Position numbers: made by a program. A stretch of DNA of 64,000 nt, from positions 224,001-288,000 of the forward strand of contig CAWGPD010000004.1 in the NCBI GenBank assembly GCA_963824385.1. Reading direction: 5' to 3'. Source of the stretch: an uncultured Nitrososphaerota archaeon (GTDB lineage: Archaea; Thermoproteota; Nitrososphaeria; Nitrososphaerales; Nitrosopumilaceae). Below are positions 18,001 through 21,000 of this stretch, one piece after another (position 1 is the stretch's first letter; each line of letters opens with the position of its first letter).

Positions 18001-21000
18001 ATACTTGGTCAGAAGGTCTGAAAATATCTACAATATCAATCTCTTCAGGAATATCAAGTAGACTAGAATAACATTTTTTCCCTAAAATTTCGGTTGCAGT
18101 GGGATTTACTGGAATTATATTATATCCTTGTTCGTAAAGATATTTTGGTACATAATGAGCAGCTTTATCGGGATTTTTTGACATCCCCACAACTGCAATA
18201 TTTTTTAGCAAATAAATTTTTCTTATTTCATCATCTGTATGAGAATCATGGTCCATAAATTGTAAACAACATCATGTGGCTTAATATCTTGTGGAATAAC
18301 TGATTCATATGGTAAATGCAATTATTTTATCATGGAACAAGAACCCAGTGATGTAATTATATTAAGTGCAATAAATCAAGGCGCAAAAAAATTTGATAAA
18401 ATTTCAAAAAAACTAAAAAATATTAAAGAAAAATTAAAAAACGGTTTTTGAGATCCGATTATTGAAATCTCACATTATTGGTTTTTTGTAGATGCCATGA
18501 GGTTTCAAGGCATCTTCATGTTACCTGGCATTGTACTATTTCCATGCATATGCATACTACCAGACATTACATTATTTCCAGGCATATTCATGTTGCTTGG
18601 CATTGTTGTTGAACCAGTAAATGCGGCTATTATTTGAGCCAATATGTCTTCACCATGTTGTGCTGGTGCAACTTTTCCATAATTTCCCTTCTGGAAGTAA
18701 TCTATAGCATCGTACCATCTGGTATGCTCACCAGAAGCACAGACATGATCACCACAGATGTTACTACTGCCATGACTTTGCGTGGCAAAAGTATTCCTCA
18801 GATAAGTTGATGGAGTCAAAGCGCTAGCTTGTGGAACAGCCACTATTACTGAGGATATCAGGAGAACAGTTGCTGCAAACATCAGTAATGCTATTTTAGT
18901 CATCTATTATGAGTACTCTAAATGGCATATAAAAGAATTATGACTCAATACTATGTTAGAAAATAAGAGATATTCAGTGCGATTACTTGGTGCCCATGTT
19001 CATGTTACCTGGCATTGTACTATTTCCATGCATATGCATGCTACCAGACATTACATTATTTCCGGCATCTTCATGTTGCCTGGCATTGTTGTTGAACCAG
19101 TAATTGAACTTGCCATGTTGTGCATTCCTGTTTTAACATGTTGTTGCATGCCAGAGGTTTTACCTTGTAATTGATTACCATGATTCCATACTTGTTGCTG
19201 CCATTTTGTTAACTCTCCTGGTCCACACACATGTGTATCACAGACGTTTATTTCAGTAAAATATCTAGCAGTAAGAGGAGTAAAATCATGGTAAATAGAT
19301 TTTTGATTGAGTGCGCTAGCCTGTGGAATCACCATAACAGCAAATGATGTCAAAATCACAGACATAGTAAACAAGATCACTGTTTTACTAGTCATCGATA
19401 TTTATTCGGAAGTCGGGTTATAAAAGAATTATGAATCAATGATATGTTGGAAGAATAATAGAATTATGTCGTCTCGGACTATTTGGTGCTGTTTGTATTA
19501 TTGCCATTACTAGTCATGTTTTCACCCATATTCATGTTTTCCGTCATATTTACGGTTCCAGAACTGGGCATATTTTTACCCATATTCATGTTAGATGTCA
19601 TCGAAATTGTTCCAGATGTAGATGTTTGTGTGGCATTAGATAAATTGTTAGTCAATGCGTCTAGATAGGTAGATGCTTTTCCAATTGTTGCAATACTCAC
19701 ATGTTGATGCTGTAATTGAGACAAGTTATCAAACCATTGGAATTTTTCGGCAGATTTGCATATATGGTCACCACATACATTTGTGCCACCATATGATGCA
19801 GTAAGATGAGCATCAGTAAAAACAGTTCTTTGAGTCAAATCACTAAAATTAATTCCTGGGGCAAATGCATTTGCGACTGGTAAGACAGATGCCGTAAAAG
19901 ATGACATCAAAACTGCCGTTACAAATAACGACACAGTCAATTTCTTCTGCATTAAATACCGTATTAATAGGAGGTATAAAAAAATTGCCTCCCTATGATC
20001 CTCTTCTTTGTGAACTGACAATCAATTCAATTGATTTCAGAATATACCAAACAAATAGATACAGAATATTTTCAAGTACGAAACAAAATGATGGCAAAGA
20101 TAGGCTCCAAGGCACCAAATCTGGGCGTTTCAAAATGGGTACAAGGGTTACCAACCAATATTGACAAAGAGAAAGACAATGTCGTATTAGTTGAAGTATT
20201 CCAGGTTAATTGTCCGGGTTGTTTTCTATACGGGATACCTCAAGCAATAGACATTTATCAAAAATATAGAAAAGAAGGTGTTACAGTTCTAGGAATAGCA
20301 ACAGCGTTTGAAGATTTTGATAAAAATACAATGGAGAATTTAGAATTATTACTTACCAAGGGCGAAGTAATTGGAGAAACCTTAAAGGCACTTGGCCAAT
20401 ACGGCCAACTTGTTGATGGAAACAAACTCCCTTACAAGATTCCGTTTCCTGTTGGAATGGATTTACTAAAAAAGGATGATGTGCCAATAAGCAAGACAAA
20501 GATAGATGAAATTATTCAAGCCAATGTACCTGGATTTGAATCATATAGTGATAGTCAAAAGTCTGAAATCATTGAAAGAGTAAATCAATATCTCAAAAGT
20601 AAAGAATATTCCGCACAAACTTTTGAAGAGTTTACATTGCGTGGCACGCCATCAACAATTCTAATAGACAAGAAAGGAATATTACGAGATGTCGCATTTG
20701 GAACCAATAATTTTCTTGAAGAGAACATAAAAAAATTATTAAATGAATAAACATCAACTTATGAACTTGGAATCATAGTAATTATAACATGTATACATCG
20801 TTTGATGAAACACCACTTGACAAGATAATTATTTTATTAAAATCCCACCAATCAGAATTTGTATCCGGAGAAAAACTAAGCAAGTCATTGAATCTAAGCA
20901 GAGCGGCAATTTGGAAAAATATCAAAAAGATCCAGTCCATTGGGATACAAGATTGAATCAAAAATAAAGAGAGGTTATAAATTACATTTAGATACTACAC

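What a model noticed while it worked through the whole genome (the two positions that open the first line are those of the whole stretch)
18505..19952. Genus-specific family of secreted proteins with a CGDHxC motif and methionine-rich tails: candidate copper sponges of ac [...]
Six or seven proteins with N-terminal signal anchors share a ~45-residue module centred on (I/V)CG(D/N)H(I/M/V)Cx(x)GE, followed in most by low-complexity tails full of MxxM/MPxxM motifs: the tandem g01654-g01655-g01656 here, g00441 (C1), g01240 (C3), and the pair g01125 (DUF7482, 448 aa) + g01126 (C3). I read the Cys-His-Cys site plus Met-rich tails as Cu(I)-binding, i.e. an extracytoplasmic copper buffer or delivery system for the copper-dependent ammonia oxidation machinery, evolved in the acid-soil genus Nitrosotalea. 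New would be a metal-handling family that sets acidophilic AOA apart from neutrophilic ones.
Evidence so far: Regex CG[DN]H.C: 5 called proteins, all with the motif 50-70 residues from the N-terminus after a hydrophobic anchor; only 2 further six-frame matches in 1.68 Mb, without the flanking pattern; variants VCDTHVC (g01655) and ICGDRMC (g01240). Tails e.g. [sequence left out] (g01654), MPSPMVNPNSPMVNATSPMGAMPSPM (g01240). Six-frame search with the 75-aa module of g01656: 5 places in this genome; 0 of 20 genomes of 14 other genera of the order (>=97% complete) at E<=0.001; 10 of 10 other Nitrosotalea genomes, 1-10 places each, frames of 82-498 aa. No Pfam family on the module. The Nitrosotalea comparative paper PMC5767755 has no occurrence of 'copper'.
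(Added by a program. Inside this text positions count along the whole contig: contig position 224,001 is position 1 of the stretch shown here. "Call 12" and the like, gene names such as g00115 and contig names such as C1 are that model's own, and its searches are not shown. The text may have been shortened before it was handed on; [...] marks where a part breaks off. The agent that wrote the report below was given it as the finding of a first reader that could run no searches.)

Follow-up and report, generated by a model that had tools for sequence, protein, structure and literature searches.

The report
Secreted methionine-tailed proteins of acid-soil archaea
Three neighbouring genes of an acid-soil ammonia-oxidising archaeon encode small exported proteins with a cysteine-stapled head and a floppy methionine-rich tail; the head occurs across the whole archaeal family, and copper binding by the tails is plausible but untested.

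Summary
The sequence observation is real. Window 18505-19952 (minus strand) holds three separately promoted genes for Sec-exported proteins of 132, 114 and 157 aa. Each has a conserved N-terminal head (CGDHxC or CDTHVC) and a disordered Met-rich tail. The genome has eight head-bearing genes.

The "genus-specific" claim fails. The His-bearing form also fills a second genus-level group (7 of 7 genomes). A broader profile finds the head in 92 of 139 genomes of the same family and in 0 of 61 genomes of other families. The head leads one DUF7482 paralogue in many genera, including named Nitrosopumilus species, where it is followed by Met-rich, acidic or His-containing linkers.

Only Cys-Gly and the second Cys are invariant. 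The His is confined to the Nitrosotalea-like lineage, extra cysteines always come in pairs, and the model shows a small hairpin. The head is therefore more likely a disulfide-stapled module than a Cys-His-Cys copper site.

Copper(I) binding by the tails is my best guess (about 0.35). It rests on MxM/MxxxM spacing, on similar Met tracts inside this genome's CopCD/P-type ATPase island, and on no known periplasmic Cu(I) chaperone being detected. Tails are lost in some orthologues, many Met sit in NMT glycosylation sequons, and published data show Nitrosotalea sinensis is copper-sensitive with little cellular copper.

The parts
18505..18903 (-). Gene 1 (P0001, 132 aa). Signal peptide residues 1-28. 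Head with CGDHVC at residues 50-55 (nt 18739-18756). Helices at 59-72 and 84-96. Disordered Met-rich tail at residues 94-132 (nt 18508-18624; 9 Met in 39 residues).
   Evidence: RNA-library contigs at 99% identity or more over 18615-18871
18928..18933 (-). TTTATA box 24 nt upstream of the gene 1 ATG. It sits in a 14-nt context identical to that of gene 2. Read as an archaeal TATA-like promoter giving a probably leaderless mRNA.
   Evidence: the function is inferred
19051..19395 (-). Gene 2 (P0002, 114 aa). Signal peptide, head with the variant CDTHVC at residues 52-57 (nt 19225-19242), and a tail at residues 96-114 (nt 19054-19110; 4 Met in 19 residues).
   Evidence: an RNA-library contig of a relative covers 19079-19380 and carries a 12-nt deletion in the tail at 19099
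19419..19424 (-). TTTATA box 23 nt upstream of the gene 2 ATG.
19479..19952 (-). Gene 3 (P0003, 157 aa, read from the ATG at 19952; the open frame reaches 20021). Signal peptide residues 1-29. Head with CGDHIC at residues 60-65 (nt 19758-19775). Tail at residues 104-157 (nt 19482-19643; 8 Met and 5 N-x-S/T sequons in 54 residues).
   Evidence: RNA-library contigs of relatives cover 19513-19931 with length variants at 19548/19593-19621
19975..19980 (-). TTTATA box 22 nt upstream of the gene 3 ATG.
20091..20750 (+). Divergent neighbour: a thioredoxin-fold redoxin/ResA-like protein with a CPGC motif and no signal peptide. It marks one side of the conserved slot. It is probably not a functional partner, because it appears cytoplasmic.
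17846..18256 (-). CoA_binding_2 protein, which marks the other side of the slot.

Best explanation
The three genes encode small proteins that are exported by the Sec pathway and released from a cleaved signal peptide into the space between the membrane and the S-layer. Each protein has two functional parts.

The N-terminal 'head' is a roughly 45-residue module: a short hairpin closed by the invariant CX4C pair, followed by a helix. It is a structural or docking unit shared by a family-wide set of secreted proteins of Nitrosopumilaceae. Its oldest traceable host is a DUF7482 paralogue.

The C-terminal tail is intrinsically disordered, almost uncharged and rich in Met arranged as MxM and MxxxM. 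I propose that these thioether clusters bind Cu(I), or another soft metal, weakly and reversibly. In that way they would buffer or relay copper outside the membrane. Binding by thioethers alone does not depend on a protonatable ligand and would still work at the low pH of this organism's habitat.

Shown here: gene structure, export signal, family range, disorder of the tail, Met enrichment and spacing, purifying selection on the core, and presence in RNA libraries. Inferred: the disulfide, metal binding, and any role in copper supply.
For: Anatomy.

Homology and range: the head profile gives E 1e-17 to 1e-28 within the lineage. It hits 92 of 139 genomes of the same family. In 1.84 billion representative proteins there are 102 hits at E 0.001 or better, almost all with the module at residues 20-90.

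Structure: the AlphaFold2 model of P0001 with a 48-row alignment has a core at residues 45-72 with pLDDT near 80 (a hairpin at the CX4C, then a helix). The tail at residues 97-131 has pLDDT below 50.

Real genes: dN/dS of the core is 0.07-0.70 in 11 pairs with a finite estimate (12 compared). Each gene has its own TTTATA box 22-24 nt before the ATG. Contigs from 4 RNA libraries of 4 studies lie on all three genes.

Met tails: 9 of 39, 4 of 19 and 8 of 54 residues are Met, against a genome background of 2.4%. MxM occurs 3/1/2 times and MxxxM 3/2/4 times. There is no DNA tandem repeat inside the genes, so the composition is not recent slippage.

Copper link: in this genome, comparable Met tracts lie in three proteins between a CopC-CopD fusion and a YHS/TRASH P-type ATPase. 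In other genera the head is followed by linkers of Met with His and charged residues, in 4 of 11 loci and in 8 of 10 Nitrosopumilus loci. Met- and His-rich extracytoplasmic repeats are a classical copper-binding feature (my own knowledge: Ctr1 Mets motifs, CopA/PcoA/CueO inserts, PcoE/SilE).

Vacancy for a chaperone: no SCO1 above cut-off, no PCuAC and no HMA were found. PMC7785015 (passages) states that AOA CopC lacks the Met-rich Cu(I) site and that N. maritimus probably uses another chaperone.
Against: No metal-binding measurement or copper-dependent expression exists for any member.

The trio is not next to copper genes. Its neighbours are a redoxin, BirA, a CoA-binding protein and a GTPase.

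The tail is not conserved. Orthologues of gene 1 in two other genomes end after about 20 residues with 1-2 Met. Family-wide, only 28 of 70 His-type members with a tail of 30 aa or more have 5 or more Met in any 30-aa window.

The commonest Met context is NMT (43 cases), which is an N-glycosylation sequon. The tails are also rich in T, S, N and G, as expected of a glycosylated stalk.

The ancestral head-DUF7482 gene lies directly downstream of Fe/Mn superoxide dismutase in 3 of 5 other genera examined. That points to oxidative stress rather than copper.

N. sinensis is the most copper-sensitive strain tested and holds little copper (PMC13003922).

The proteins evolve fast: 41-55% identity between genomes whose neighbouring redoxin is 85-93% identical. 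This is unusual for a dedicated chaperone.

The dN/dS values are rough (Nei-Gojobori on short sequences; dS is above 1 in several pairs).
Confidence: 0.35

Rival explanations
1. Glycosylated stalk or coat proteins with no metal role. The head docks the protein to a cell-envelope partner. The tail is a disordered, N-glycosylated spacer, and its Met content is a by-product of NMT-type sequons and lineage-specific linker composition.
For: NMT is the commonest Met context (43 cases). The tails contain 4.3 sequons per 100 aa and are rich in T, S, N, G and P. P0003 has 5 sequons in 54 residues. Sister proteins in the same chromosomal slot carry Pro/Thr-rich linkers instead of Met-rich ones, followed by a C-terminal CX27C mini-domain. 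Other members are head plus stalk plus a PEFG-CTERM anchor. A PEFG-CTERM protein outside the family also has an M/T/N-rich stalk. Nitrosotalea has extra surface-glycosylation gene clusters (PMC4836417, passages).
Against: P0001 and P0002 have 9 and 4 Met in their tails but only 1 and 0 sequons. Linkers in Nitrosopumilus are Met-rich without sequons, for example EKETMM-type repeats. No N-glycosylation was detected on the Nitrosopumilus piranensis S-layer protein (PMC12153357, passages). Met at 15-28% is not needed for a spacer.
Confidence: 0.2
2. One reading: the Cys-His-Cys of the head, held reduced, is itself a Cu(I) site, and the family is a copper delivery system for ammonia oxidation.
For: The two Cys are invariant. 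His at motif position 4 is present in 91 of 104 family proteins, and a second His lies 11-12 residues upstream in 67 of 104. A DsbD/CcdA-type reductant exporter is encoded in the genome. DsbD is among the most strongly induced genes under copper limitation in N. viennensis (PMC7785015, abstract and passages).
Against: The His is absent outside the Nitrosotalea-like lineage, where the motif reads CGDRLC, CGDQLC, CGDELC, CGNKLC, CGVQLC or CGLDLC. It is also absent in one paralogue of this genome (CGDRMC). All additional cysteines in the family occur as local pairs (CX6C, CX8C, CX27C), as expected for disulfides in exported proteins. The motif aligns with the first half of a bacterial 4-Cys repeat, in which the position aligned to the His varies (hhalign probability 79%, E 1.6e-5 over 18 columns). 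No known copper site uses CX4C, to my knowledge.
Confidence: 0.12
3. Sacrificial antioxidant shield. Exposed Met in the tails and linkers scavenges H2O2 or reactive nitrogen species outside the membrane. These species are a particular problem at low pH, where nitrite becomes nitrous acid.
For: The head-DUF7482 gene with its Met-rich linker lies about 50 nt downstream of, and on the same strand as, Fe/Mn superoxide dismutase in 3 of 5 other genera examined. Marine AOA largely lack catalase and differ in H2O2 sensitivity (PMC6593220, abstract in the search listing). The Met is surface-exposed and disordered.
Against: I did not look for an extracytoplasmic methionine sulfoxide reductase, so repair is unaddressed. 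The SOD adjacency is absent in the 3 Nitrosotalea-lineage loci examined and may be inherited gene order. This reading does not explain Met tracts inside the copper island.
Confidence: 0.12
4. Secreted competition or signalling peptides. These would be small, fast-evolving, disulfide-stapled exported proteins in tandem arrays, acting on other cells.
For: The genes form tandem arrays of 2-3. They evolve fast and their tails vary in length between strains. In another genus there are head-only cationic proteins of 74-103 aa in threes. The sequence around the first Cys (YGNSVIC...C in some members) resembles the N-terminal box of pediocin-like bacteriocins; that motif is recalled, not retrieved by any search.
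Against: There was no Pfam hit of any kind, including to bacteriocin families, at E up to 10. No bacteriocin structure appeared in the PDB profile search at E up to 10. The leader is a Sec signal, not a double-glycine leader. No immunity or transporter gene lies nearby. The same head sits on large DUF7482 and other passenger domains.
Confidence: 0.05

Closest known systems
Methionine-rich Cu(I) sites of extracytoplasmic copper proteins (Ctr1 'Mets' motifs; the Met-rich inserts of CueO, PcoA and CopA; CusF and the CopC Cu(I) site). Recalled knowledge, not retrieved here.
   Same: Both have clusters of Met spaced i/i+2 to i/i+4 in a flexible, exported segment. Thioether-only ligation would be insensitive to low pH.
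   Different: In the trio the Met tract is a free C-terminal tail on a roughly 100-residue protein rather than an insert in an enzyme or transporter. His is nearly absent. There is no sequence relationship and no copper operon context.
PcoE/SilE periplasmic 'metal sponge' proteins (recalled)
   Same: Both are small, Sec-exported, largely disordered and Met-rich, and could bind several soft-metal ions.
   Different: PcoE/SilE use paired His and Met motifs and lie in pco/sil resistance operons. The trio has 0-2 His in each tail, no such operon and no Pfam match. A closer look-alike in this genome is the 122-aa secreted GNYTGMHG-repeat protein at C1:149025-149408.
N-terminal region of the ~420-460-aa DUF7482 (PF24298) paralogue of Nitrosopumilaceae, for example N. 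maritimus ABX12626.1
   Same: The layout is the same: signal peptide, head, then a low-complexity Met-rich linker. This is the only demonstrable homologue outside the lineage.
   Different: The trio lacks the DUF7482 domain. It has His at motif position 4, and its tails are uncharged rather than acidic or basic.
Bacterial 4-Cys repeat VCG(N/D)x(V/I/F)CExGExxxxCPxDC (uncurated; P0107, P0109, P0111, P0115)
   Same: Both share V-C-G-[DN]-x-[VIL]-C-x-x-G-E (hhalign probability 79%).
   Different: The archaeal head has only the first Cys pair and occurs once, directly after a signal peptide. The likeness covers 18 columns and may be convergent.

Membership tests
DUF7482 (PF24298) | Match to the Pfam model above its 27.5-bit cut-off | tested here: not met
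   P0001-P0003 give 0 Pfam families at E up to 10. The paralogue L002:5089-6432 does match (283 bits).
Nitrosopumilaceae 'CX4C head' module (defined here, uncurated) | Position directly after a Sec signal peptide, with the invariant C-G-x-x-x-C preceded by a small residue-(V/I) and followed by a helix | tested here: met
PcoE/SilE metal sponge | Sequence match to the family, with repeated His/Met pair motifs | tested here: not met
   No Pfam or NCBIfam match. The tails have 2, 0 and 0 His.
PcoE/SilE metal sponge | Location in a copper/silver resistance operon | tested here: not met
   The neighbours are a redoxin, BirA, a CoA-binding protein and a GTPase.
PcoE/SilE metal sponge | Binds several Cu(I)/Ag(I) ions and folds on binding | not testable with these tools
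   This needs biochemistry.
Mets-motif Cu(I) binding segment | Three or more Met within MX1-3M spacing in an exposed segment | tested here: met
   MxM occurs 3/1/2 times and MxxxM 3/2/4 times in the three tails. The tail is disordered.
Mets-motif Cu(I) binding segment | Measured Cu(I) affinity | not testable with these tools
   No copper ligand is offered by the folding tools, and there are no experimental data.
HMA/CopZ or SCO1 copper chaperones | Ferredoxin-like fold with MxCxxC, or thioredoxin fold with CxxxC plus His | tested here: not met
   No PF00403 or PF02630 match in the proteins. The genome has none above cut-off.
Class IIa (pediocin-like) bacteriocins | Match to the family model, a double-glycine leader, and an adjacent immunity gene | tested here: not met
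   No Pfam match at E up to 10. No PDB bacteriocin at E up to 10. The leader is a Sec signal with AxA. The neighbours are unrelated.

The most novel reading that the evidence does not exclude
The cysteine-stapled head, the Met-rich linker and DUF7482 together form the missing extracytoplasmic Cu(I) capture and hand-over system of Nitrosopumilaceae. The Nitrosotalea-like lineage has multiplied the head into 2-13 places per genome. It has also re-tuned the Met tracts from Met with His and charged residues to uncharged, thioether-only tails that still bind Cu(I) at pH 4-5. The three tandem genes in this window would then be free-standing, acid-adapted copper buffers or relays feeding the copper enzymes of ammonia oxidation.
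Probability: 0.2. Interest if true: 0.8.

Novelty: new variant of a known kind. Interest (0 to 1): 0.5.

Why it matters
Ammonia-oxidising archaea run their energy metabolism on copper enzymes. How copper is captured and passed on outside the membrane is not known. The known periplasmic Cu(I) chaperones were not detected in this genome, and published work says AOA CopC lacks a Cu(I) site (PMC7785015).

If the tails and linkers bind copper, this work supplies a concrete and widespread candidate. It consists of an undescribed head module, Met-rich segments and a domain of unknown function. It comes with a natural acid-versus-neutral comparison that can be tested using peptides.

If they do not bind copper, the result still has value. 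It defines an uncurated N-terminal module of secreted Nitrosopumilaceae proteins, and it corrects a claim of genus specificity.

Tried and rejected
- Pfam and NCBIfam gave nothing for the trio and its paralogues, apart from DUF7482 on one paralogue.
- The PDB sequence-profile search with the head returned only a 15-residue chance match to a GH5 endoglucanase (E 1.1). The search with the DUF7482 protein returned nothing.
- The ESM Atlas search returned only the protein's own clusters of archaeal hypothetical proteins.
- I did not run a fold search on the P0001 model, because its confidence is too low (pLDDT 59.5).
- The DUF7482 model is confident (pLDDT 88.5). It has no Foldseek PDB match at E 0.001 or better and no VIA-align match at Z 2 or more, so it gave no functional lead.
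- Complex prediction of the DUF7482 domain with its own head gave no verdict (score 0.01 against a mark of 0.32). This counts neither for nor against docking.
- The copper-responsive promoter motif of N. viennensis (from PMC7785015) has 2 matches in the window at 3 mismatches, against 3.1 expected, and neither is near the trio.
- The sigma-70 and terminator scan was uninformative for an archaeon.
- Literature searches returned 0 papers for 'DUF7482'; 0 for 'methionine-rich' with 'ammonia-oxidizing archaea' and 'copper'; and 0 for Nmar_0730, ABX12626, WP_012215113 or A9A4D7. The tag Nmar_0730 was my own guess from accession numbering.
- The supplements of PMC6593220 had no occurrence of the accessions or tags I tried. 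Proteomic data on these proteins may exist under other identifiers that I could not see.
- In the read-laying, the flanking genes at 17400-18569 had no cover.
- The conserved divergent neighbour (redoxin with CPGC) was considered as a thiol reductase partner. I set it aside because it has no export signal and all the flanking genes share the same conserved order.
- Three look-ups of earlier findings of this scan returned nothing.
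Full report
WHAT IS THERE

Window 18505-19952 holds three tandem minus-strand genes: 18505-18903 (132 aa, P0001), 19051-19395 (114 aa, P0002) and 19479-19952 (157 aa, P0003).

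Each protein begins with a positively charged N-terminus and about 20 hydrophobic residues. This stretch ends in A-x-A followed by an invariant Leu. I read it as a cleaved Sec signal peptide, not a signal anchor.

A conserved region follows, centred on CGDHVC, CDTHVC or CGDHIC. After it comes a low-complexity tail with 9 of 39, 4 of 19 and 8 of 54 residues as Met. The background is 2.4% Met in long open frames of the genome.

Each gene has its own TTTATA box 22-24 nt before the ATG. The box contexts of genes 1 and 2 are identical over 14 nt. The three genes are therefore separate, probably leaderless, transcription units.

Tandem Repeats Finder finds no DNA repeat inside the genes. The Met-rich composition is therefore held at the protein level and is not recent slippage.

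The strict regex gives 7 six-frame matches in 1.68 Mb. Five are in family frames and two lack the flanking pattern. The two variants (CDTHVC, CGDRMC) are also present.

A profile of the seven modules finds an eighth, more divergent member at C4:403562-403711 (ICGEQLC plus a CX8C pair). Only 5 of the 8 members have a stretch with 6 or more Met in 30 aa.

Names attached to close homologues are 'hypothetical protein' from Candidatus Nitrosotalea.

THE FAMILY IS NOT GENUS-SPECIFIC

The seven-row profile was searched in 121 genomes of the family. It hit 6 of 6 other genomes of the same genus. It also hit 7 of 7 genomes of a second genus-level group at E 1e-17 to 1e-20. Single weak matches (E 2e-5 to 8.5e-3) appeared in one genome each of seven further genera.

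Those weak matches turned out to be real relatives:
- DUF7482 proteins beginning ...VCGNKLC... or ...VCGDRLC...
- Three tandem small cationic proteins with ...VCGD(Q/E)LC...

An 11-row profile that includes them was searched in 201 genomes of the class. It matched 92 of 139 genomes of the same family and 0 of 61 genomes of 11 other families. By genus the counts were 19/19, 12/12, 39/56, 6/12, 5/5, 4/4, 2/2, 2/3, 1/3, 1/1 and 1/1. The profile contains rows from three of these genera, so those three match by construction; the others do not.

Against 1.84 billion representative proteins, the same profile gives 102 hits at E 0.001 or better and 45 at E 1e-10 or better. The module lies almost always at residues 20-90.

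These tallies include genomes flagged unpublished (G077, G092, G249).

WHAT THE HEAD IS ATTACHED TO

Within the Nitrosotalea-like lineage the head leads many different passenger regions:
- Met-rich tails, as in this window.
- Pro/Thr-rich linkers ending in a roughly 30-residue CX27C mini-domain.
- DUF7482.
- A domain with QDPGQGHESHQLA-type motifs.
- Pentapeptide repeats.
- Stalks ending in a PEFG-CTERM anchor.

The window's locus is a conserved slot, bounded by BirA and a redoxin on one side and a CoA-binding protein on the other. In 20 other genomes (24 loci; 13 of the same genus and 7 of the second group) a head gene sits beside the redoxin. The content of the slot varies. Some genomes have 2-3 Met-tailed genes. 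Others have one Pro/Thr-linker gene. One protein, P0096, combines a Met-rich middle region with the CX27C end. The two forms therefore appear to be variants of a single architecture.

THE ANCESTRAL HOST

DUF7482 is found in 59 of 62 sampled genomes of the family and 2 of 2 of one other family, and in none of the 26 genomes sampled from the remaining eight families.

Its ~420-460-aa paralogue carries the head in every locus I read. That covers 14 loci of 10 genera (sequences) and 10 Nitrosopumilus loci. Named proteins among them include N. maritimus ABX12626.1, N. piranensis, N. adriaticus and N. zosterae.

After the head comes a low-complexity linker:
- Outside the Nitrosotalea-like lineage, Met reaches 10% or more in 4 of 11 loci, with 3-10% His and 32-45% charged residues in those four.
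- In Nitrosopumilus, 8 of 10 linkers have 4-12 Met, in repeats of Met with Glu, Lys, Asp or His.
- In the three Nitrosotalea-lineage loci, Met is 7-19%, His is 0-3% and charged residues are 8-15%.

So 'head plus Met-rich segment' is a family-wide design. What is particular to the acid-soil lineage is the multiplication of the head (2-13 matched places per genome), the His in the motif, and the uncharged Met tracts. The samples are small and related, so the contrast is a lead and not a statistical result.

THE HEAD: DISULFIDE MODULE OR COPPER SITE?

Only C, G and the second C are invariant across the family.

His at motif position 4 is present in 91 of 104 family proteins. (I examined 115 proteins and dropped 11 that lacked the motif in the first 100 residues or had several copies.) Outside the lineage that position is R, Q, K, E, V, D or L.

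Extra cysteines always come as local pairs (CX6C, CX8C, CX27C). The four odd counts are explained by a Cys inside or ahead of the signal peptide in three proteins; the fourth (P0069, a partial frame with no ATG) has its extra Cys in the head.

The weakest profile hits are bacterial proteins made of repeats of the form VCG(N/D)x(V/I/F)CExGExxxxCPxDC. hhalign aligns the Nitrosotalea head to the first half of such a repeat with probability 79% and E 1.6e-5 over 18 columns. No Pfam or NCBIfam family covers these repeats.

AlphaFold2 on a 48-row alignment gives an overall weak model (pLDDT 59.5). Its core, at residues 45-72, has pLDDT near 80: two short strands at the CX4C, then a helix. The tail is disordered.

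Together these points favour a disulfide-stapled structural or docking unit. They do not exclude a reduced bis-thiolate site. The genome encodes a DsbD/CcdA-type reductant exporter, and DsbD is strongly induced under copper limitation in N. viennensis (PMC7785015).

THE TAILS: EVIDENCE FOR COPPER

- Met spacing peaks at 2, 4 and 6 residues family-wide. In the trio the motifs are MxM and MxxxM.
- Apart from the thermosome's GGM tail, a few further Met-rich secreted, membrane or Gly/Met-rich proteins listed below or not followed up, and non-coding frames, the strongest Met tracts in this genome lie on contig C1:236000-248000. Three proteins there sit between a 993-aa CopC-CopD fusion and a P-type ATPase with a YHS/TRASH N-terminus: 191 aa; 328 aa with a PEFG-like C-terminus; and a 153-aa membrane protein.
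- Known extracytoplasmic Cu(I) chaperones were not detected: no SCO1 over cut-off, no PCuAC and no HMA. The genome is 86% complete.
- Published work notes that AOA CopC lacks the Met-rich Cu(I) site and that N. maritimus probably uses another chaperone (PMC7785015, passages).

THE TAILS: EVIDENCE AGAINST COPPER

- The tail is dispensable in evolution. Orthologues of gene 1 in two genomes end after about 20 residues with 1-2 Met. Only 28 of 70 His-type members with a tail of 30 aa or more have 5 or more Met in a 30-aa window.
- The commonest Met context is NMT (43 cases), which is an N-glycosylation sequon. The tails are T/S/N/G-rich.
- The trio is not beside copper genes.
- N. sinensis is the most copper-sensitive ammonia oxidiser tested and holds very little copper (PMC13003922, passages). 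That does not fit a storage 'sponge'.
- In 3 of 5 other genera examined, the head-DUF7482 gene lies about 50 nt downstream of Fe/Mn superoxide dismutase on the same strand. This is not so in the 3 Nitrosotalea-lineage loci. The adjacency keeps an antioxidant reading alive.

ARE THESE REAL, EXPRESSED GENES?

Nei-Gojobori dN/dS of the core is 0.07-0.70 in 11 pairs with a finite estimate (12 compared). The tails show many indels and ratios of 0.2-1.0 on few codons. These are rough values, and dS exceeds 1 in several pairs.

The proteins are 41-55% identical between genomes whose neighbouring redoxin is 85-93% identical. They therefore evolve fast while remaining under constraint.

Contigs from four metatranscriptome libraries of four studies lie on the genes. 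Two, at 99% identity or more, cover 18615-18871 and 18710-18869. The others, at 90-99% identity, cover genes 1, 2 and 3 and parts of the redoxin gene. They carry length variants in the tails of genes 2 and 3. The tool warns that contigs in RNA libraries are compatible with transcription but do not prove it.

VERDICT

My best explanation (0.35) is a family-wide, probably disulfide-stapled head carrying a disordered thioether-rich tail. The tail would bind Cu(I) weakly outside the membrane, in an acid-adapted form of a design that is common to the whole family.

The rivals are a glycosylated stalk or coat protein (0.20), a Cys-His-Cys copper site (0.12), an antioxidant Met shield (0.12) and competition or signalling peptides (0.05). 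The remainder is unknown.

No paper in the held library mentions DUF7482 or Met-rich proteins of AOA in connection with copper. Supplementary tables that I could not match by identifier may hold proteomic data.

Noticed in passing
G000 contig C1:236000-248000 (locus L054; outside the window): A copper island. It holds a 993-aa CopC-CopD fusion with a C-terminal NHL/SGL-like propeller and a P-type ATPase with a YHS/TRASH N-terminus. Between them lie three proteins with long Met-rich tracts: 191 aa; 328 aa with a PEFG-like C-terminus; and a 153-aa membrane protein. There are also two paralogous secreted proteins whose mature N-terminus begins with His.
   Followed up: partly
G000 contig C1:149025-149408 (L055:1523-1891, minus strand): A 122-aa secreted protein made of GNYTGMHG-type Met/His repeats and ending in MMHHHGM...MPMM. 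It is a closer look-alike of a PcoE/SilE-type metal sponge than the trio is. It lies next to a CrcB-like gene and has no Pfam or NCBIfam match.
   Followed up: partly
L002:5455-6432 and relatives (DUF7482 domain): The AlphaFold2 model is confident (pLDDT 88.5, pTM 0.88) and shows an internally duplicated alpha/beta domain. It has no Foldseek PDB match at E 0.001 or better and no VIA-align match at Z 2 or more. This may be an undescribed fold. There are two paralogues per genome in most Nitrosopumilaceae.
   Followed up: partly
L099:4904-6896, L100:5001-7001, L103:4749-6666: Fe/Mn superoxide dismutase lies directly upstream of the head-DUF7482 gene (about 50 nt away, same strand) in three genera, including N. 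maritimus. The two genes may be co-transcribed.
   Followed up: partly
window 20091-20750 (+): A redoxin/ResA-like thioredoxin-fold protein with a CPGC motif and no signal peptide. It is divergently placed next to the head genes in 20 other genomes. Its function and any link to the trio are unknown.
   Followed up: partly
L020, L042, L048-L053 (another genus of the family): Three tandem, very basic, head-only secreted proteins of 74-103 aa (KHKFSKW...VCGDQLC type). The trio is conserved across at least 8 genomes and lies beside a NUDIX-like gene.
   Followed up: partly
G000 contig C2:255814-259047: Eight successive ~119-aa open frames, about 420 nt apart, give almost identical translations. 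This points to a long tandem DNA repeat, perhaps part of a large repetitive surface protein read in another frame.
   Followed up: no
L001:6990-8001 (G000 contig C1, about 302990-304000): Open frames here translate to Arg/Ala/Gly/Pro-rich sequences typical of high-GC DNA, unlike the roughly 33% GC of the rest of the genome. This could be foreign DNA or a mis-joined stretch about 2 kb from the end of the contig.
   Followed up: no
L008:126-1334, L034:124-1368, L041:365-1594; also the N-terminal part of the ~490-aa DUF7482 paralogue (L067, L072, L081): An unannotated domain with repeated QDPGQGHE(S/N)HQLA and SEP(V/I)Q(I/V)V motifs. It is fused to the head in the Nitrosotalea lineage and to DUF7482 in other genera. 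It has no Pfam match.
   Followed up: no
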